Shown piece by piece: positions 51,146 to 57,997 of a stretch of DNA of 64,000 bases. The DNA comes from a virus (Duplodnaviria; Caudoviricetes), in the IMG/VR virus record IMGVR_UViG_2865859272_000007, positions 15,399 through 79,398 of that record, one strand, 5' to 3'. Position numbers and translations under genes: made by a program. Numbering within the stretch: the first letter of the stretch is position 1; every line of letters begins with the position of its first letter. The notes beneath the pieces are model-generated. The model made no database searches. It saw only the letters and a list, made by a program, of their open reading frames with translations, and was not told the origin of the DNA.

Positions 51146-51158
51146 CGGGAGGTTGGCC

Positions 51159-51353
51159 ATGAACAACGAGGTGGAAGTCGCCTCCCGACTGGCCCGTATC
51201 GAAGCCCGGCTGGACGAGCTGGTGCGACTGAATCAGAGTCGCGGCGAAGACCACGAACAGCGCATCAGGACGCTCGAAAGATGGCGCTACGCCATTCCAC
51301 CCACCGTCGTCGCGGCGGTCATCTCCGCCCTTGTGGCCATATTCGGAAAGTGA
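51159..51353 (+). CDS. Small coiled-coil plus single-TM lysis-region protein
   Basis: RLARIEARLD, DHEQRIRTLERW, C-terminal hydrophobic helix. Confidence 0.75.
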   Translation: MNNEVEVASRLARIEARLDELVRLNQSRGEDHEQRIRTLERWRYAIPPTVVAAVISALVAIFGK

Positions 51354-51359
51354 GAGCCG

Positions 51360-53321
51360 GTGAACCTCTTCACCCAAAAGCAGGTAGAAGATCTCTGTGT
51401 CCACGTCGGTTTCTCCCGCTCGGATGCCCGCATCGCTTCTGCTATCGCGATGGTCGAGGCTCCGGCCGAAGGCAGGCCCGGCTTCTGCGACGCCGACGCC
51501 GTCGGAGACCAGGAGCTGGCCAACTCCACGTGGGGCTACAGCTACGGCTTCTTCCAGATCCGCTCCCTGCGGGCCCACAAGGGCACCGGCCAGTACCGGG
51601 ACGAGGACCGCCTCCGCAATCCCGACTTCGCATGCCGGTCGGCGCTGCACATCTTCCAGAACGCAGGCGGGGGTACGTTCAACGACTGGACGACCTACCG
51701 GACCGGTCAGTACAAGGCATACCTCCAGGACGAGTTTCCGCCCGACCCCGGCACGTATGTCGTCGTCTCCGGCGACACCCTCACCAAGATCGGCCTCAAG
51801 GTCGGTGTCGAGTGGCAGGAGATCGCCCGCCTGAACAACCTGCACCACCCGTACACCATCAACATCGGCCAGGTGCTCCGGCTCCCCGACGGCGCGGGAC
51901 TGCCTCCTGAGCCGGTGCAGTACACCGTCGCCGCCGGCGACACCCTGTGGGCGATCGGGAAGCGCTTCGGCATCCCGTGGGAGCACATCGCCCGAGCCAA
52001 CGGCATCGTCGGGCCGTACGTCATCCACCCCGGAGACGTTCTCGACATTCCCGGAACCCAGGGCGACCCTGCCCCCGAGCCCGAGCCTGAGCCCGAGCCT
52101 GAGCCCGTCGAGATCAACCTGTCGAACCTGACCTTCAACGCCCGCAACGACGACGTCGCCCTGCTCCAGCAGGCCCTCACAGATGCCGGCCACGACCCCG
52201 GCCCCGTCGACGGCTGGTACTACAACATGACCCGGGCCGCGATCAGGGCCTTCGAGGAAGCGGAGGGCCTGATCGCCGATGGGCTTGCCGACCGCGCGGT
52301 GTGCGAACGACTGGGCTTCGCCGTCACCGGCGAGGACCCCCCTGTTCCTCCGCCGAGCTCGGGCGCGGTGTCGGCCGACAGCATCCGGGCCGCGGCCACC
52401 GGCGGCACCCGCATATCCGGCACCTACTCGCACAGCAGCATGGCCAACCCGGTGTCTGTGTACCGCAAGGGCGACGCCGTCTACTTCCACGCCGGCATGA
52501 CCATCGACTGCGACGGCCGGCCCGGCTCCATCTGCAACAGCACCACCGACCCGTGGTTCCAGCCGCAGACCGCTTGGCAGCAGTCCGACGGCCGGCACCT
52601 GGACGCCGCGGACCTGCCGTTCATCGTGATCCCGCTCGCGTCGTCGACCTGGGACTACCGGCAGCACGGTATCGGCGGCGGGGATTTGTGCGTCGTCGCT
52701 TACCGGGACCGCTTTTTGTATGCGGTCGTCGGCGACCTCGGACCCACGTACCGGATCGGCGAGGCGTCCAACGCCTGTGCCCGCGCCCTCGGCATCAACG
52801 GCGACCCGCGTGTCGGCGGCACCGGCAGCGGCGTGACGTACGTGGTGTTCCCCGGCGTGAAGGTCCGGCCCATCGAGTCGAAGGCCGAGGCGTCCCGCCT
52901 GGGCGCCCAGAAGCTGACCGAGTGGCTGGGGATCGGGACGTCGCCGGCGCCGTCCTTCGAGGGTGAGGTGCTGCGCCTCACGAATGTCGAGCGGCAGGCC
53001 GGCGGGCTCCGGCCGCTGTCCGCTGATACGCGACTGGACCGCGCCGCGGAGAAGCATTCCGCCCGCATGTCCGACGGCCTGGGCCTGGTCCACAGCGATC
53101 TGGCGGCAGCGCTTCGAGCGGAGGGCGTCAGCTTCCGGTCCGCGGCCGAGAACATCGCTGTCGGATACCGCACCCCGCAGGCCGTGGTCGCTGCGTGGAT
53201 GAACTCGCCTGGTCACCGCGACAACATCATGAGCCCCGGCCTCACGCACCTGGGCGTCGGCCACGTACAGGCGTCGGACGGCCAGCACTGGTGGACCCAG
53301 ATGTTCGCCTCCATGGCATGA
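51360..53321 (+). CDS. Multidomain hydrolase: SLT-like, 2 LysM, PG-binding, GH75 chitosanase-like, CAP domain
   Basis: AIAMVE..YGFFQI; GDTL LysM twice; IDCDG, LDA..LPFIV, GDLGP..GEAS (GH75); VLRLTN.ER, AENIA.G, WMNSPGHR.NI (CAP). Confidence 0.88.
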   Translation: MNLFTQKQVEDLCVHVGFSRSDARIASAIAMVEAPAEGRPGFCDADAVGDQELANSTWGYSYGFFQIRSLRAHKGTGQYRDEDRLRNPDFACRSALHIFQNAGGGTFNDWTTYRTGQYKAYLQDEFPPDPGTYVVVSGDTLTKIGLKVGVEWQEIARLNNLHHPYTINIGQVLRLPDGAGLPPEPVQYTVAAGDTLWAIGKRFGIPWEHIARANGIVGPYVIHPGDVLDIPGTQGDPAPEPEPEPEPEPVEINLSNLTFNARNDDVALLQQALTDAGHDPGPVDGWYYNMTRAAIRAFEEAEGLIADGLADRAVCERLGFAVTGEDPPVPPPSSGAVSADSIRAAATGGTRISGTYSHSSMANPVSVYRKGDAVYFHAGMTIDCDGRPGSICNSTTDPWFQPQTAWQQSDGRHLDAADLPFIVIPLASSTWDYRQHGIGGGDLCVVAYRDRFLYAVVGDLGPTYRIGEASNACARALGINGDPRVGGTGSGVTYVVFPGVKVRPIESKAEASRLGAQKLTEWLGIGTSPAPSFEGEVLRLTNVERQAGGLRPLSADTRLDRAAEKHSARMSDGLGLVHSDLAAALRAEGVSFRSAAENIAVGYRTPQAVVAAWMNSPGHRDNIMSPGLTHLGVGHVQASDGQHWWTQMFASMA

Positions 53322-53355: not shown

Positions 53356-54981
53356 TTGGCCACGCAAGCAGAACTGGACCGGGCCGCAGCATGGGCGCGC
53401 GCCCAGGTCGGTAAGCCGTATGTGCTCGGGTCGTTCGGGTCGTCGTTCGACTGCTCGACTTATATGTCCGGCATCGCAACGATGATCCGCGACGGTGTCG
53501 CGAAGCGGTGGTTCACCACCCACCCGTTCCACTCGGGTGCCCGTTTTCCGCTCGCCGGCTGGGAGCGCGACCTCCAGGCCCCGTTCATGATCGGCATCAC
53601 GGCCGATGGGATCGGCCACACCGGCGGCACCCTGCTGGGCGTCAACTACGAAGCAACCGCCGCCGATGGCCGCCGGGTTCGCATGGGCCCCACGGCCCGC
53701 GGGGCTTTCCACTCGATGTACGAGCTCCGCTACGGCTTCCGCCCCTCGCTTCTCGAAGGGGCGCCGCTGCCTCCGGGAGGGGGAGAGAACGTGACCACCT
53801 ACACGATCAAGCCCGGCGACACCCTCTACGGAATCGGCGAGCGGTTCGAGGTCGACTGGCGCGACATCGCCGAAGCCAACAACATCGACTCGCCCTACAT
53901 CATTCACCCCGGCCGCGACCTGGAGATACCGGGCGCCGACAACCGGCCTGTGGTCCGCCTCTCCAACCTGACCTTCAACGCCCGCAACGACGACGTCCGC
54001 GTCCGTCAGGAGGCGTTGAACGCCAAGGGGTACAACGCGGGCCCGGTCGACGGCTGGTACTACAACATGACCAAGGCGGCCGTGCAGCGGTTCCAGGAGG
54101 CCCAGGGCTGGACCGGTCCTGACGCTGACGGCATGGTCGGCCTGGAAACGGTTGCCCGCCTCGGGCTGCGCGTGGAGGGCGGCAGCGTCCCCACCCCGGC
54201 GCCGGCACCGCCGCCGGCCCCGTCGCCGAAGACGGTGAACCTGGCGAACCTCGCCTTCAACGCCCGCAACGACGACGTCAAGATCGTCCAGCAGGCGCTG
54301 AAGGACAAGGGCTACGACCCGGGTGTCGTCGACGGCTGGTACTACAACATGACCCGCGGTGCGGTGCGTGCGTTCCAGGAGGCCCAGGGCTGGGACGGCG
54401 ACGACGCTGACGGCATGGTCGGCCCCGAGACGGCCCGCCGGCTCGGCCTCAACCCCGTCGGCACCCCGCCGGTCGCCCCCGCTCCGACGCCCGTCCCATC
54501 GCCTTCGGGTTGGCGTGCGGCTTCGGAGCCGACGCACGACTACACGCGGGTGTCATGGGGCGGCAAGACGGTCAACCGCCGCACTGCGATCATGCTGGAC
54601 CGGGCCATCGCGATTCTCCGCGCGGAGGGTGGCCCCACCTTCAGTTACCTCACGCAGGGCTCTTACAACCGAGGCGTCTCGGCTTCTGCCGGCACGCATG
54701 ACGGCGGCGGTGTCGTAGATATCCCGTCGTCCAGCAGTGCGGTTGCTCTGGCGCTGCGCAAGGCAGGCTTCTTCGCCTGGGTGCGCACTCCGGCGCAGGG
54801 CTTCTCCTACCACATCCACGCGGTGGCGATCGGTGACCGGGAGCTGTCGTCCTCCGCTCGTGGCCAGGTCACGCAGGGCTTCCAGGACCGCAACGGCTTG
54901 GCCGGCCGCGGGCCTGACCCGGACCCGGATCCCTACCCGGACTGGACGAAGCGGTACGGCACACACGTGAGCCCGGACTGA
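53356..54981 (+). CDS. Multidomain endolysin: NlpC/P60-like, LysM, 2 PG-binding, M15-like peptidase
   Basis: GKPYV..FDCS..HTG; LysM; two copies of NARNDDV..DGWYYNMT; TQGSY..SAGTHDGGG.VD, HIH. Confidence 0.85.
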   Translation: MATQAELDRAAAWARAQVGKPYVLGSFGSSFDCSTYMSGIATMIRDGVAKRWFTTHPFHSGARFPLAGWERDLQAPFMIGITADGIGHTGGTLLGVNYEATAADGRRVRMGPTARGAFHSMYELRYGFRPSLLEGAPLPPGGGENVTTYTIKPGDTLYGIGERFEVDWRDIAEANNIDSPYIIHPGRDLEIPGADNRPVVRLSNLTFNARNDDVRVRQEALNAKGYNAGPVDGWYYNMTKAAVQRFQEAQGWTGPDADGMVGLETVARLGLRVEGGSVPTPAPAPPPAPSPKTVNLANLAFNARNDDVKIVQQALKDKGYDPGVVDGWYYNMTRGAVRAFQEAQGWDGDDADGMVGPETARRLGLNPVGTPPVAPAPTPVPSPSGWRAASEPTHDYTRVSWGGKTVNRRTAIMLDRAIAILRAEGGPTFSYLTQGSYNRGVSASAGTHDGGGVVDIPSSSSAVALALRKAGFFAWVRTPAQGFSYHIHAVAIGDRELSSSARGQVTQGFQDRNGLAGRGPDPDPDPYPDWTKRYGTHVSPD

Positions 54982-55718
54982 TGACCGCGATCCGGGATGT
55001 GCAGATCGCCCTCCTGGCGGCCGAGGCCGGCATCCCGGACGAGGAGCTGGCCACGGCCGTGGCGATCTGCCTGGGCGAATCCTCCGGTCAGCCTCGCGCC
55101 TACAACGGGCACGGAGGCGACCACAGTTTCGGGCTCTGGCAGATCAACATGCGGGGACGGATGGGCCCTGCTCGCCGCGCCCAGTACGGCATCTCGTCGA
55201 ACGAAGCCCTCTTCGATCCGGTGGTCAACGCCAAGGCCATGGCGCGCCTGTCCTCGGGCGGCCGGAACTGGAAGCCGTGGGGCGCCTACACCAAGGGCGG
55301 CTACCGCAACAAGGGCCGCCTAGAGCGGGCGGAGGAGGCCGTACACCGGCTGCGCTCCGGCGAGGCGGTCGAGCCACCGATCGAAGCGCCGGCATGGCAT
55401 CCGACGGTCAACGCCGCACACATCTACCCGGGAGGCCGCGGCCATTCGGTGTACGTCTTGCAGCGCGCCCTGGCCGCGATGTTCCCCGACTACCGAGTCC
55501 TGAGCTACCCCGACCGGCGGGGTGTGATGGACGAGGAGTCCGTGGCCTTCCTGAACCGGTGGATGGCCTCCGGGCCCGGCGGATCGTGGCCGGCGACCGG
55601 CTACGCGAACCTCGACACGCTCTCGCGGCTGGGCTACAAGGTGCCGCCGTCGCTGGAGTTCAAGGCGACCTGTGACCACGTTGACGCCGATGAGATGCAC
55701 TTCTACGGAGGCTCCTGA
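54981..55718 (+). CDS. SLT-like transglycosylase with a PG-binding-like C-terminus
   Basis: AICLGESSG, SFGLWQIN, LFDPVVNA, WKPWGAY. Confidence 0.85.
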   Translation: MTAIRDVQIALLAAEAGIPDEELATAVAICLGESSGQPRAYNGHGGDHSFGLWQINMRGRMGPARRAQYGISSNEALFDPVVNAKAMARLSSGGRNWKPWGAYTKGGYRNKGRLERAEEAVHRLRSGEAVEPPIEAPAWHPTVNAAHIYPGGRGHSVYVLQRALAAMFPDYRVLSYPDRRGVMDEESVAFLNRWMASGPGGSWPATGYANLDTLSRLGYKVPPSLEFKATCDHVDADEMHFYGGS

Positions 55719-55719
55719 A

Positions 55720-56997
55720 GTGGCAGTAACGGTTCTGCATCTGCACTGCGACCCGGCAGGCCGGGCGGTGCTTCACCTTCATTCGGACACCTACTTCAAA
55801 GCCCAGACGGTGGGCGTCGCCGTGCGTAGCAGCACCGGGCAGAACCTCGACTACCCGGGGAACGTGTCGAGCGTCAACGTCGGCCCCGACGGCTACATCT
55901 ACATATCGGACCCCCGCACCCCGTTGCCGAACGGCACGTATACGGTGTTCGGCTTCTACCGCCTGGGCGGCGTCTGGCACAACCTTCCCTCGCAGCAGCT
56001 CGTGGTGCCGCCACCGCCGCCCGCGGAGGGCACCTATGTGGTGCAGCGCGGCGACACGCTGTGGGGGATCGGCCAGCAGCTCGGCGTGCCGTGGGAGGAC
56101 ATCGCCGCCACGAACGGCATCGAGGAGCCGTACACGATCTACCCGGGTCAAGTCCTCGTCATCCCCGACAGCCAACCGGCACCCGACCCCGAGCCTGACC
56201 CGGATCCTCCACCGCCGGACCCCGAACCCGATCCTGAGCCGGGCGGGGACACGACTACGGTTCCGGGCAAGATGGTCGTCTTCTCCGGGGACAACTTCCT
56301 GGACGGCGGCAAGTGGAACATCGGCCGCAGCTCCGCCTACCCCGGCGGCGGACCCGGACAGACCAACTACGGCGACAACAAAGCTGATTACATCCATCCG
56401 ACCAACGCTCCCAGCCTCGTCCACGACGCGGACCTGGGCAGGCTGGTGTGGCGCTTCCGTGCGACCAGGAGGGGGCCGGACGCCTGGGATACGCCGCTGG
56501 CGACGACCGAGTACGTCCCGGGCGGCGGCGGGTTCGAGATCCGGCCCGGCGACACCATGACCGCCAAGCTGAAGCTTCCCGCTGAGCGGGGAGCGTGGCC
56601 CGCGTATTGGACGTGGGGCCGCGACAACCCTCCCGGGTATGGCGGGGTGCAGCCGGGGCACGGCGAAGTCGACATGTTCGAGTACCACCCGAACAATCCG
56701 GATCTGCTGGAGCTCAGCAACCGGGTCAGCGGCGGCGGCCACTACTACCGGAACAGTCAGGTGGTGCAGCCCGGACGCTGGATCGACATGCGCGTGGATT
56801 TCGGCACGGACGGCGTCGTCTGGCGCATCGACGGCCAGCACGTCTTCACCGCCAACGGGCTACCGAGCTACTGGCGAGCCTGGCCGATTGTGAACCTGTC
56901 GATTGTCTCGGCCGCGAACCCCTGGCATCCCGAACCGCTGTCGAGCGTCAACACGATCGACTTCTACGTAGCCGATTTCAAGGTGTGGCGCCCGTGA
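55720..56997 (+). CDS. LysM-containing GH16 glycoside hydrolase
   Basis: LysM YVVQRGDTLW; GAWPAYW and catalytic EVDMFE (ExDxxE). Confidence 0.85.
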   Translation: MAVTVLHLHCDPAGRAVLHLHSDTYFKAQTVGVAVRSSTGQNLDYPGNVSSVNVGPDGYIYISDPRTPLPNGTYTVFGFYRLGGVWHNLPSQQLVVPPPPPAEGTYVVQRGDTLWGIGQQLGVPWEDIAATNGIEEPYTIYPGQVLVIPDSQPAPDPEPDPDPPPPDPEPDPEPGGDTTTVPGKMVVFSGDNFLDGGKWNIGRSSAYPGGGPGQTNYGDNKADYIHPTNAPSLVHDADLGRLVWRFRATRRGPDAWDTPLATTEYVPGGGGFEIRPGDTMTAKLKLPAERGAWPAYWTWGRDNPPGYGGVQPGHGEVDMFEYHPNNPDLLELSNRVSGGGHYYRNSQVVQPGRWIDMRVDFGTDGVVWRIDGQHVFTANGLPSYWRAWPIVNLSIVSAANPWHPEPLSSVNTIDFYVADFKVWRP

Positions 56998-57012
56998 ACA
57001 GGAAGGCGAGTC

Positions 57013-57375
57013 ATGTCTGAAGGCAAGTTCCGGCGGGCCACGCACGTGGTCTCCTCGGGTGAGAACCTCGTAGAGATCGGCGCCATGTACGGGGTGTCGT
57101 GGCGCGACATGGCGGTGGACAACGAGCTCGACAACCGGGACCTGATCCACCCCGGGCAGGTGCTCAAGCTGCCCTACTGCGAGTACACGGTTGTCGAGGG
57201 CGACACCCTCACGGGCATTCACGAGGCGTATGTCGCGAAGCGTGCGGCGGGATGCCCGGGATGCCATGACGCTGGCCCGTACGGGGCTTCCCTGCGCGAC
57301 GTTGCGCGGTACAACCAGATCGACAACCCTGACCTGATTCACCCCGGGCAGGTTGTCAAGCTGCCCTTGCGGTGA
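57013..57375 (+). CDS. LysM-only protein (two LysM)
   Basis: HVVSSGENL..LIHPGQVLKLP; YTVVEGDTL..LIHPGQVVKLP. Confidence 0.85.
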   Translation: MSEGKFRRATHVVSSGENLVEIGAMYGVSWRDMAVDNELDNRDLIHPGQVLKLPYCEYTVVEGDTLTGIHEAYVAKRAAGCPGCHDAGPYGASLRDVARYNQIDNPDLIHPGQVVKLPLR

Positions 57376-57381
57376 TCGGGC

Positions 57382-57771
57382 ATGGGACGCGCGTCTTCCC
57401 CCGTGCCCGGCTACAAGGTCACCTACCCGTACGGGGTGCGTAACGCCCGCTACGCGGCTGGCTTCCACACTGGCCACGACTACGCCGCCCCTACCGGCAC
57501 CCCGGTGGTCGCCGTTCGCGATGGCGTCATCGCCTGGTCGAACAGCGGCGGAGGGGCGTACGGCCAGTGGATAGGGCTGCGTGCCGACAACGGCCGCGAT
57601 TACGTCTACTGCCACTTGTCCGCCCGGAGCGTCCGCACTGGCCAGAGGGTCAAGGCCGGCCAGAGGCTTGGCGCGGTGGGTGCCACTGGCAGGGTTACGG
57701 GCCCGCATCTGCATTTTGAAGATCGTCCGCGTGGCGGTGGCTACGGCAACGTCCGCAGGCCCTCTTGGTGA
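57382..57771 (+). CDS. M23 family peptidase (catalytic domain only)
   Basis: HTGHD, GTPVVAV.DG, YCHL, TGPHLHFE. Confidence 0.92.
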   Translation: MGRASSPVPGYKVTYPYGVRNARYAAGFHTGHDYAAPTGTPVVAVRDGVIAWSNSGGGAYGQWIGLRADNGRDYVYCHLSARSVRTGQRVKAGQRLGAVGATGRVTGPHLHFEDRPRGGGYGNVRRPSW

Positions 57772-57781
57772 AGGAGAAACG

Positions 57782-57997
57782 ATGAAGGATTCCACACGGA
57801 GGACCGTGCGTACGGTCTTCCAGAACGCTGTCGCTGTGGCGGCCGGTATGCCGCTCCTGCTGGACGCTGCCGGCATCGATGAGACGGTGCCCGGTGTTGC
57901 CGTCGTTCTCGGTGTGTCGGCCGCGGTGACGCGCCTGATGGCGCTGCCGCTCGTCGACTCCCTTCTCCCCGCGTTCCTCCGCAAGGGCGACGCCTGA
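57782..57997 (+). CDS. Holin
   Basis: RRTVRTVFQ followed by hydrophobic helices and VTRLMALP; last gene of the lysis module. Confidence 0.75.
   Translation: MKDSTRRTVRTVFQNAVAVAAGMPLLLDAAGIDETVPGVAVVLGVSAAVTRLMALPLVDSLLPAFLRKGDA

What the first reader, a model, noticed from the sequence alone, without database searches (positions are those of the whole stretch)
51360..53321. SLT-LysM-LysM-PGBD-GH75-CAP fusion protein
The GH75 family is known mainly for fungal and actinobacterial chitosanases. Here the GH75 motifs (IDCDG; GD..P..GEAS with the candidate catalytic Asp and Glu) are fused to a phage transglycosylase and to a CAP/SCP domain (AENIA, WMNSPGH). I know of no described phage lysin with this architecture. 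GH75 could cut de-N-acetylated, lysozyme-resistant peptidoglycan or PNAG.
Basis: partly seen in the sequence, partly recalled or inferred. Interest (0 to 1): 0.75.

Follow-up and report, generated by a model that had tools for sequence, protein, structure and literature searches.

The report
Streptomyces prophage lysin with GH75 and CAP
A Streptomyces prophage encodes a six-domain cell-wall-degrading enzyme whose "chitosanase" (GH75) part belongs to a previously undescribed group of GH75 domains built into phage lysins, which suggests that viral GH75 genes published as metabolic helper genes really attack the host envelope.

Summary
AlphaFold models of the GH75 and CAP parts (pLDDT 94 and 95) best match the viral chitosanase V-Csn (7TVL) and bacterial SCP domains. 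All four V-Csn active-site acids are kept (D383, D385, D459, E468).

The gene opens a six-gene wall-hydrolase block. This block follows the tail genes of an ~80-kb prophage in a Streptomyces genome and is bracketed by small membrane proteins.

The exact architecture is a singleton. No other GH75-CAP fusion was found in the 5.8-billion-cluster protein search, in the best 150 hits of an exhaustive HMMER search, or in 400 genomes of the genus.

GH75 in a lysin is not unique, however. The query sits in a well-supported clade of 32 GH75 domains, all fused to CHAP, M23, SLT, Rpf-like, LysM or PGBD modules. Two relatives examined lie at the same position in phage-like contigs.

V-Csn's own gene lies among portal, head and tail-fibre genes.

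Verdict: a new variant of a modular endolysin. The substrate (probably de-N-acetylated glycan) and the CAP role are inferred only.

The parts
51360..53321 (+). Whole gene: 653-aa multidomain lysin (SLT_3 - LysM - LysM - PGBD - GH75 - CAP). It has no N-terminal hydrophobic signal sequence.
   Evidence: ORF; domains; start site; residue check.
51396..51695 (+). SLT_3 lysozyme-like / lytic transglycosylase domain (aa 13-112). E33 is a candidate catalytic Glu, but the alignment is ambiguous by 2 residues.
   Evidence: Pfam PF18896, 43.4 bits. 23% identity to the SLT_3 domain of the neighbouring gene 54981-55718. No solved relative by sequence.
51753..52052 (+). Two LysM peptidoglycan-binding modules (aa 132-177 and 188-231).
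   Evidence: Pfam PF01476, 103.5 bits, 2 stretches. PHROG endolysin families match. 37-43% identity to LysM-PGBD parts of Streptomyces phage endolysins.
52065..52133 (+). Pro/Glu-rich (PE)n linker, aa 236-258.
   Evidence: Read directly from the translation.
52143..52313 (+). PG_binding_1 domain (aa 262-318).
   Evidence: Pfam PF01471, 49 bits.
52380..52937 (+). GH75 double-psi beta-barrel glycanase domain (aa 341-526; Pfam core aa 380-513). The four active-site acids are D383 (52506-52508), D385 (52512-52514), D459 (52734-52736) and E468 (52761-52763).
   Evidence: Pfam 59.4 bits. phmmer E 2e-12 to V-Csn 7TVL. Model pLDDT 94.3. Foldseek prob 1.0, TM 0.60 to V-Csn. The four acids are invariant in 54 aligned GH75 domains.
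52971..53306 (+). CAP/SCP/PR-1 domain (aa 538-649). Family-invariant residues H578, E597 and H619 are kept. It lacks the Cys pair of most secreted host paralogs.
   Evidence: Pfam 75.7 bits over the full profile. 4IFA E 1e-7. Alignment A4. Model pLDDT 95.3. TM 0.83 to 4IFA and BB0689.
51153..51353 (+). Upstream 66-aa protein with a coiled-coil N-terminus and one C-terminal transmembrane segment. Holin/membrane candidate.
   Evidence: Hydropathy scan. phrog_5225, function unknown.
53356..57771 (+). Five further wall-hydrolase or wall-binding genes of the same block: 53356-54981 (LysM + 2x PGBD with unassigned end domains), 54981-55718 (SLT_3), 55672-56997 (LysM plus an unassigned C-terminal domain), 57013-57375 (LysM only), 57382-57771 (M23 peptidase).
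   Evidence: Pfam; PHROGs.
57779..57997 (+). 72-aa protein with two hydrophobic segments that closes the block. Holin candidate.
   Evidence: Hydropathy scan. phrog_4316, E 4e-20; the same family follows the GH75-CHAP lysin in L003.

Best explanation
The gene encodes a modular phage lysin, most likely an endolysin, of an integrated ~80-kb siphovirus-type Streptomyces prophage.

Proposed mechanism:
1. The protein is made without a signal peptide and reaches the wall when the flanking small membrane proteins (holin candidates) permeabilise the membrane.
2. Two LysM modules and one PGBD hold it on peptidoglycan.
3. Two different glycan-cutting modules then act on the sugar backbone.
 - The N-terminal SLT_3 domain works as a lysozyme-like or lytic transglycosylase enzyme on ordinary MurNAc-GlcNAc bonds.
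 - The GH75 domain is an inverting endo-beta-1,4-glycanase. In V-Csn, D36 and D148 bind the free amine of the sugar in the -2 subsite, E157 is the proposed proton donor and D36 the proposed catalytic base. These correspond to D385, D459 and E468 here.
 - GH75 would therefore cut where the glycan carries a de-N-acetylated sugar (MurN in Streptomyces peptidoglycan, or another GlcN-containing wall glycan). Lysozyme-type enzymes handle such sites poorly.
4. The C-terminal CAP domain was recruited from Streptomyces cellular CAP proteins. Its role is unknown; a Zn/His-Glu-dependent accessory hydrolase or a ligand-binding module is the best guess.

What is shown: the domain identities, folds, conserved residues, prophage context, and the existence of a lysin-dedicated GH75 clade.

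What is inferred: holin dependence, activity of each module, the substrate of GH75, and any role of CAP.

Sub-probabilities:
- Envelope-degrading phage enzyme rather than a metabolic gene: ~0.85.
- Endolysin rather than a virion-borne entry enzyme: ~0.65.
- GH75 substrate is de-N-acetylated peptidoglycan: ~0.35.
For: Domains and folds.

Active-site acids invariant: mapped onto V-Csn residues described in PMC9485262.

Prophage context:
- TerL, portal, MCP and TMP.
- A 65% GC island of ~80 kb in a 73% GC genome.
- 16S is 95-97% identical to named Streptomyces.

Lysis-block context:
- Five more wall-hydrolase or wall-binding genes follow.
- Flanking TM proteins.
- phrog_4316 is conserved next to a GH75 lysin in L003.

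Lysin-dedicated GH75 clade:
- All 32 rows of the query's clade (SH-like support 99) are fused to CHAP, M23, SLT, Rpf-like, LysM or PGBD modules.
- Independent fusions to GH25 and Amidase_2 occur elsewhere in the tree.
- Relatives sit at the same place (after tail genes and ~180-aa paralog arrays) in phage-like contigs of 73 and 52 kb.

Other support:
- The host genome has no other GH75.
- Lysin-clade GH75s have lost the N-terminal Cys pair of secreted chromosomal GH75s, which fits folding in the cytoplasm.
- A substrate is plausible: S. coelicolor PG has 5-8% MurN in vegetative mycelium (bioRxiv 10.1101/319178).
- There is a precedent for a wall hydrolase specialised on deacetylated PG: DslA (PMC7511926).
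Against: - No activity data exist for any lysin-fused GH75.
- The holin candidates belong to PHROGs of unknown function.
- The SLT_3 catalytic Glu cannot be placed unambiguously.
- MurN is a minor component (5-8%), and it carries a lactyl-peptide that a chitosanase cleft may not accept.
- The gene directly follows minor tail genes, so a virion-associated role is not excluded.
- V-Csn's Domain-2 insertion, with its proposed +1 subsite residues D50 and N54, is absent. Subsite architecture therefore differs from the only solved GH75.
- The six-domain protein is known from a single genome, so purifying selection on the whole fusion cannot be shown.
Confidence: 0.7

Rival explanations
1. Virion-associated (tail) lysin or depolymerase. 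The protein is carried on the tail and opens the wall or a surface glycan during infection, not at lysis.
For: - The gene immediately follows the minor tail genes and the array of seven ~180-aa paralogs.
- V-Csn's own gene lies between head and tail-fibre genes in its contig.
- Streptomyces phage IceWarrior carries a GH46 chitosanase-family protein between its major tail and tape measure genes.
Against: - No domain resembling a tail-attachment or structural module was found in the protein.
- LysM and PGBD wall-binding modules are typical of endolysins of Gram-positive hosts. The matching Streptomyces phage proteins are annotated as endolysins and sit at the same genome position.
- The tape measure protein already carries lysin-like segments.
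- The block ends with a two-TM holin-like gene.
Confidence: 0.18
2. Auxiliary metabolic gene. The GH75 domain is a chitosanase that helps the host or lysogen feed on fungal or insect chitosan, as proposed for V-Csn.
For: - GH75 enzymes, including V-Csn, are true endo-chitosanases (PMC9485262).
- The domain is 51-64% identical to secreted chromosomal GH75s of many Streptomyces.
- This host has no chromosomal GH75 of its own.
Against: - The protein has no signal peptide.
- The GH75 domain is embedded between peptidoglycan-binding modules and a lytic transglycosylase, in the lysis block.
- All 32 nearest relatives are fused to peptidoglycan hydrolases rather than to the CBM, ricin or fn3 modules seen on polysaccharide-degrading GH75s.
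- The secretion-type Cys pair has been lost.
Confidence: 0.05
3. The GH75 module targets a non-peptidoglycan wall or surface glycan of Streptomyces, such as a partly deacetylated GlcNAc polymer or the tip-associated beta-1,4-glycan. The LysM and PGBD modules only provide anchoring. It would then be a secondary-polymer depolymerase within the lysis block.
For: - Related proteins combine GH75 with other polysaccharidase families (GH10 in P0070, GH114 in P0153).
- The same block has a LysM protein with a weak GH16-like C-terminus (E 0.13).
- GH75 specificity for GlcN-GlcN bonds is established (PMC9485262).
Against: - No GlcN-rich beta-1,4 polymer is documented in the Streptomyces wall in the papers I read.
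- The most consistent partners across the clade are peptidoglycan peptidases (CHAP, M23), which points to a peptidoglycan context.
Confidence: 0.25
4. Chance or decaying fusion. One or more modules (especially CAP or SLT_3) are inactive passengers in a cryptic prophage, and the architecture has no functional meaning.
For: - The six-domain architecture occurs in a single genome.
- The SLT_3 catalytic Glu is uncertain.
- CAP function is unknown in bacteria.
Against: - The ORF is intact, with no stops or frameshifts over 1962 nt in a 65% GC prophage.
- All family-invariant residues of GH75 and CAP are retained.
- Both modelled domains fold with pLDDT of 94 or more.
- The prophage keeps complete packaging, head, tail and lysis modules.
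Confidence: 0.1

Closest known systems
V-Csn, soil viral GH75 endo-chitosanase (PDB 7TVL-7TVP; Wu et al. 2022, PMC9485262)
   Same: - Same family and fold: phmmer E 2e-12, Foldseek prob 1.0, TM 0.60.
- Identical D-D-D-E active-site set.
- Encoded by a phage.
   Different: - V-Csn is a stand-alone 230-aa protein with a ~33-residue Domain-2 insertion (D50, N54) that is absent here.
- Identity is only ~22-31%.
- It was interpreted as an AMG for chitin turnover, with no mention of peptidoglycan or lysis.
- Here the domain is one module of a lysin.
Lysin-fused GH75 clade in Streptomyces-type (pro)phages (P0002-P0026, P0068-P0072; unnamed in any source)
   Same: - GH75 domain 54-75% identical and in the same clade (SH-like support 99).
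- Fused to peptidoglycan hydrolase and binding modules.
- Same genomic position after tail genes (L001, L003).
   Different: - Partners are CHAP+PGBD, M23+LysM, Rpf-like, SLT or GH10.
- None has CAP, and none has the order SLT_3-LysM-LysM-PGBD-GH75-CAP.
Secreted chromosomal GH75 chitosanases of Streptomyces
   Same: 51-64% identity over the catalytic domain, with the same compact bacterial form that lacks the V-Csn insertion.
   Different: - They are ~240-330 aa with signal peptides and an extra N-terminal Cys pair.
- They stand alone or carry CBM/ricin modules.
- They are not in prophage lysis blocks.
Modular endolysins (Lysin A type) of actinobacteriophages, e.g. Streptomyces phages Nanodon, Lika, Zemlya
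   Same: - Multi-module design: catalytic domains plus LysM/PGBD wall-binding domains.
- The gene sits downstream of the tail genes.
- 37-43% identity over the LysM-PGBD part.
   Different: Known catalytic modules are peptidases, amidases, GH19/GH25 and transglycosylases (my own knowledge of Payne & Hatfull 2012). No GH75 or CAP is present in 50,697 phage records by tblastn.
Bacillus phage Slash/Stills/Staley 'secreted LysM/SCP-PR1 domain protein' (phrog_16914 'sporulation protein')
   Same: A CAP domain 40-42% identical, combined with LysM, encoded by a phage.
   Different: Small proteins with no catalytic glycanase module, located outside the lysis block, annotated as secreted/sporulation proteins.
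DslA of Bdellovibrio (PMC7511926) and IceWarrior gp21 (GH46, MK433259)
   Same: These are functional analogies. DslA is a wall hydrolase specialised for de-N-acetylated peptidoglycan. IceWarrior gp21 is a chitosanase-family glycanase carried by a Streptomyces phage.
   Different: They have unrelated folds (lysozyme superfamily rather than DPBB). DslA is not phage-borne. gp21 lies in the tail module and shows no similarity to GH75.

Membership tests
GH75 (Pfam PF07335, CAZy GH75) | Profile HMM match above the curated threshold | tested here: met
   59.4 bits against GA 27, aa 380-513.
GH75 (Pfam PF07335, CAZy GH75) | Four conserved acidic residues of the active-site cleft (V-Csn D34, D36, D148, E157) | tested here: met
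   D383, D385, D459 and E468 are invariant in 54 aligned domains that include V-Csn.
GH75 (Pfam PF07335, CAZy GH75) | Double-psi beta-barrel fold like the solved GH75 | tested here: met
   Model pLDDT 94.3. The top five PDB matches are V-Csn entries, prob 1.0, TM 0.60. Next come kiwellin, SPI and expansins.
GH75 (Pfam PF07335, CAZy GH75) | Inverting endo-hydrolysis of beta-1,4 GlcN linkages (chitosanase activity) | not testable with these tools
   Needs an enzyme assay.
Phage endolysin (modular, Gram-positive type) | At least one peptidoglycan-cleaving catalytic domain | tested here: met
   SLT_3 at 43.4 bits. The position of the catalytic Glu is ambiguous.
Phage endolysin (modular, Gram-positive type) | Cell-wall-binding modules | tested here: met
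   2x LysM and PG_binding_1.
Phage endolysin (modular, Gram-positive type) | Encoded in a lysis cassette next to a holin | tested here: inconclusive
   The block is flanked by a 1-TM 66-aa protein and a 2-TM 72-aa protein. Their PHROGs (5225, 4316) have no assigned function.
Phage endolysin (modular, Gram-positive type) | Lyses host cells from within at the end of infection | not testable with these tools
   Needs prophage induction, gene deletion or expression experiments.
CAP / SCP / PR-1 superfamily (PF00188) | Profile match and alpha-beta-alpha sandwich fold | tested here: met
   75.7 bits covering profile positions 1-117 of 117. TM 0.83 to 4IFA and 4D53.
CAP / SCP / PR-1 superfamily (PF00188) | Conserved His/Glu cavity residues | tested here: met
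   H578, E597 and H619 fall in invariant columns of 31 Streptomyces-type CAP domains. The second Glu of the eukaryotic tetrad was not mapped.
SLT_3 / lytic transglycosylase (PF18896) | Catalytic Glu at the end of the first helix | tested here: inconclusive
   E33 (MVEAP) lies 2 residues from the column of the Glu in 'GES' of the neighbouring SLT_3 protein in BLASTP. No solved homolog by sequence.
Auxiliary metabolic gene (AMG) | Not part of the replication, structure or lysis machinery; acts on host metabolism | tested here: not met
   The domain is fused to peptidoglycan-binding and lytic modules inside the wall-hydrolase block of the prophage.

The most novel reading that the evidence does not exclude
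Phage GH75 domains are an unrecognised class of host-envelope glycanases. They would be specialised for de-N-acetylated sugars in the bacterial wall (MurN/GlcN-containing peptidoglycan or a GlcN polymer). The 142 viral 'chitosanase AMGs', including the crystallised V-Csn, would then be lysis or entry enzymes rather than carbon-cycling genes. The CAP domain would be a further, so far unknown, wall-active module.
Probability: 0.35. Interest if true: 0.8.

Novelty: new variant of a known kind. Interest (0 to 1): 0.6.

Why it matters
1. It would add a new catalytic module, GH75 with a DPBB fold, to the endolysin repertoire. This module might cut lysozyme-resistant, de-N-acetylated glycan, which is useful for enzybiotic design and for understanding how phages lyse actinomycetes.

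2. It gives a concrete, testable reason to re-read a prominent soil-virus "AMG" (V-Csn, Nat Commun 2022) and the viral GH75 catalogue as envelope-degrading genes. This bears on estimates of viral contributions to soil carbon cycling.

3. CAP domains in bacteria have no established function. A CAP fused to a lysin offers a defined system (wall binding or cleavage assays) in which to look for one.

Tried and rejected
- tblastn of the GH75 segment against 50,697 phage records found nothing at E<=0.01. Cultured phages therefore gave no comparators.

- The IMG/VR scan with the GH75 alignment used very narrow patterns and returned one locus (L004). This proved to be a stand-alone host-type GH75 next to Dak2 and transposase genes at a contig end, so it is uninformative.

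- A combined GH75+CAP alignment (A2) mis-placed the CAP rows over the GH75 half and was discarded. The domains were modelled separately, so nothing can be said about GH75-CAP contacts.

- The "chitosanase" annotated in Streptomyces phage IceWarrior was checked as possible prior art. It is GH46, not GH75.

- The best CAP relative (L108) was checked as a possible second lysin. It is a cellular TerD-CAP-CAP protein.

- Literature searches for GH75+endolysin, chitosanase+endolysin+phage and "CAP domain"+endolysin found no description of either module in a lysin. A search for "glycoside hydrolase family 75"+"crystal structure" found nothing.

Those contexts remain unknown.

- The PNAG idea was considered and set aside because GH75 is a beta-1,4 family. 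This was not tested.

- One call failed on a wrong frame.
Full report
**Observation**

The window holds an uninterrupted 653-codon frame from GTG 51360 to the stop at 53319-53321.
- SLT_3, aa 13-112
- LysM, aa ~132-177
- LysM, aa 188-231
- PG_binding_1, aa 262-318
- Glyco_hydro_75, aa 380-513
- CAP, aa 538-649

A (PE)n linker separates LysM2 from PGBD.

The GTG start lies 6 nt behind the upstream stop and follows a purine-rich stretch. The alternative ATG (51450) used by one gene call (623 aa, P0001) has no such site and would remove the first helix of SLT_3.

**Context**

The window is part of a 143-kb contig of a 6.98-Mb genome with 73.2% GC. A ~80-kb stretch of about 65% GC (contig positions ~40-120 kb) is flanked by DNA of 74-76% GC, which indicates an integrated prophage.

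PHROGs identify the large terminase, portal, major head protein and a 1736-aa tape measure protein upstream. These are followed by minor tail genes and seven ~180-aa paralogs (phrog_7565).

The host 16S (contig C236) is 95-97% identical to named Streptomyces species. The genome's genus holds more than 400 species genomes.

The gene under study opens a block of six wall-active genes:
- 51360-53321: this protein.
- 53356-54981: LysM plus 2x PGBD, with unassigned terminal domains.
- 54981-55718: SLT_3.
- 55672-56997: LysM plus an unassigned C-terminal domain.
- 57013-57375: LysM only.
- 57382-57771: M23 peptidase.

The block is bracketed by two small membrane proteins. One is a 66-aa protein with a single C-terminal TM segment (51153-51353, phrog_5225). 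The other is a 72-aa protein with two hydrophobic segments (57779-57997, phrog_4316).

**The GH75 module**

- Its sequence matches the five PDB entries of the viral chitosanase V-Csn (E 2e-12).
- An AlphaFold model built on 54 aligned GH75 domains has pLDDT 94.3.
- The model's best structural matches are again V-Csn (prob 1.0, TM 0.60), followed by other double-psi beta-barrel proteins.

Wu et al. (PMC9485262) define four acidic residues, D34, D36, D148 and E157. They show that D36 and D148 bind the free amine of the sugar in subsite -2, and they propose E157 as proton donor and D36 as base. The equivalents here are D383, D385, D459 and E468. They are invariant in all 54 aligned domains.

V-Csn's ~33-residue Domain-2 insertion, which carries the proposed +1 subsite residues, is absent here and in all Streptomyces-type GH75s.

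**How unusual is it?**

The GH75 segment has no tblastn match in 50,697 phage records. The whole protein matches phage endolysins only over LysM-PGBD.

The word-indexed search of 5.8 billion clusters found the full architecture only in the window's own protein. It also found ~25 clusters whose GH75 domain is 54-75% identical and fused to CHAP+PGBD (~700 aa) or M23+LysM (~476 aa).

An exhaustive HMMER search of 1.84 billion representatives gave 1,497 GH75 hits. I ran Pfam on 30 of the listed hits, nearly all of at least 400 aa (one of 355 aa), and they fall into two classes:
- Partners that act on or bind peptidoglycan: CHAP, M23, SLT, Rpf-like Transglycosylas, GH25, Amidase_2, LysM, PGBD. One 910-aa protein reads GH10-PGBD-GH75-LysM-SLT.
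- Polysaccharide-binding partners: CBM35/6/5_12, ricin, fn3.

In a FastTree phylogeny of 161 GH75 domains, the query lies in a set of 32 rows with SH-like support 99, all of them lysin-fused. Fusions to GH25 and Amidase_2 arose separately elsewhere in the tree. One caveat applies: many of these rows came from a search seeded with the full-length query, so near relatives are over-sampled.

Two relatives could be placed in context:
- A GH75-LysM-M23 protein follows eight ~180-aa paralogs and an endolysin-like gene on a 73-kb contig.
- A GH75-CHAP protein follows a tape measure gene, other large genes of unassigned function and an Rpf-LysM-M23 gene on a 52-kb contig. It is followed, two genes downstream, by the same phrog_4316 membrane protein.

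More than 586 species genomes, nearly all Streptomyces, carry chromosomal GH75s that are 51-64% identical. This host has none apart from the prophage copy.

Compared with those secreted enzymes, the lysin-clade domains have lost an N-terminal Cys pair.

**The CAP module**

- It matches bacterial SCP-domain structures by sequence (4IFA, E 1e-7) and by fold (TM 0.83 to 4IFA and BB0689; model pLDDT 95.3).
- It keeps the invariant H578, E597 and H619.
- Its closest relatives (44-52% identity) are cellular Streptomyces proteins, the best being a TerD-CAP-CAP protein.
- The host has three paralogs at 33-40% identity.

No protein of 359-1143 aa in the large database combines a related CAP with lysin modules. 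In 400 genomes of the genus, no match spans the GH75-CAP junction. One of those genomes, G130, is unpublished, and no claim depends on it.

CAP plus LysM does occur in Bacillus phages of the Slash group.

**Interpretation**

The protein is best read as a modular phage lysin whose GH75 part is a wall glycanase, not a nutritional chitosanase. Four observations support this:
- The protein has no signal peptide.
- It has three wall-binding modules.
- It lies in the wall-hydrolase block.
- Its GH75 domain belongs to a clade found only in lysin fusions.

A substrate with free amino sugars is plausible. The amine-binding residues are conserved, and S. coelicolor peptidoglycan carries MurN in 5-8% of vegetative muropeptides and more in spores (bioRxiv 10.1101/319178). 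DslA of Bdellovibrio shows that hydrolases dedicated to deacetylated peptidoglycan exist (PMC7511926).

This remains inference. MurN is minor and bears the peptide stem, so another GlcN-containing glycan cannot be excluded. A virion-associated role also stays open. The role of CAP is unknown.

**Relation to the literature**

Wu et al. catalogued 142 viral GH75 genes and interpreted them as AMGs for chitin turnover. Their text contains no mention of peptidoglycan, lysin or lysis. Later papers repeat the AMG reading or treat GH75 as unresolved.

I located V-Csn's contig at 100% identity over a 76-residue stretch (L100). Its gene lies on the same strand between the portal and major head genes and three genes with tail-fibre or minor-tail hits, with abutting starts.

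A cultured Streptomyces phage, IceWarrior, carries a GH46 chitosanase-family protein between its major tail and tape measure genes. GH46 is unrelated to GH75.

Together with the lysin clade, these observations suggest that chitosanase-type enzymes in phages serve envelope degradation. I found no paper that describes GH75 or CAP as a lysin module.

**Verdict**

- Novelty: a new variant of a known kind, namely a modular endolysin with two undescribed modules.
- Interest is 0.6. The single protein is a curiosity, but the lysin-dedicated GH75 clade and the re-reading of a published AMG are testable and of wider consequence.

**Limits**

- No activity data.
- The tree was built with FastTree only.
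- The holin assignments are unproven.

Noticed in passing
L100:7674-8366 (IMGVR_UViG_3300010043_000020): The published viral 'AMG' chitosanase V-Csn (100% match to 76 residues of PDB 7TVL) is encoded inside the structural operon. It lies downstream of the portal (E 8e-9) and major head (E 2e-33) genes and directly upstream of three genes with tail-fibre or minor-tail PHROG hits, with abutting or overlapping starts. That placement suggests a virion or envelope enzyme rather than an AMG.
   Followed up: partly
L137:4964-6760 (Streptomyces phage IceWarrior MK433259, gp21): A 598-aa protein annotated 'chitosanase' sits between the major tail and tape measure genes. It is GH46 (E 1e-50), unrelated to GH75. 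So a second chitosanase family is carried by a Streptomyces phage in a tail module.
   Followed up: partly
window:55672-56997:+: This 441-aa protein of the same block has LysM (aa 122-165) and a ~250-aa C-terminal domain containing an EVDMFE motif. It gives only a sub-threshold GH16 hit (E 0.13, 12 bits). It may be another non-muramidase glycanase in the lysis block.
   Followed up: partly
window:53356-54981:+: This 541-aa protein has LysM and two PGBD modules in the middle, and Pfam-unassigned N- and C-terminal domains. By eye the N-terminus has an NlpC/P60-like 'DCS' motif and the C-terminus an M15-like H..D / H motif. These were not tested.
   Followed up: no
window:47279-51145:+ and L001:4360-8830: An array of seven (window) or eight (L001) tandem ~180-aa paralogs matches the C-terminus of a minor tail protein family (phrog_7565). 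In both phages the array lies immediately upstream of the lysin block, so it is a conserved feature of this phage group.
   Followed up: partly
window:38605-43815:+: The 1736-aa tape measure protein carries segments that match endolysin and M23-type PHROGs (phrog_971; region ~aa 1000-1130). The virion probably has its own wall-cutting activity.
   Followed up: no
P0070 (910 aa): This protein has the architecture GH10 - PGBD x2 - GH75 - LysM x2 - SLT.
   Followed up: no
L108:1492-3279:- (a Streptomyces genome of the same genus): A TerD-CAP-CAP protein (595 aa) holds the closest relative of the prophage CAP domain (50-52% identity). This Cys-less CAP subgroup is linked to a TerD stress domain and has no known function.
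   Followed up: no
window:57013-57771:+: A stand-alone LysM protein (120 aa) and a stand-alone M23 peptidase (129 aa) sit side by side. They look like a lysin split into a binding gene and a catalytic gene.
   Followed up: no
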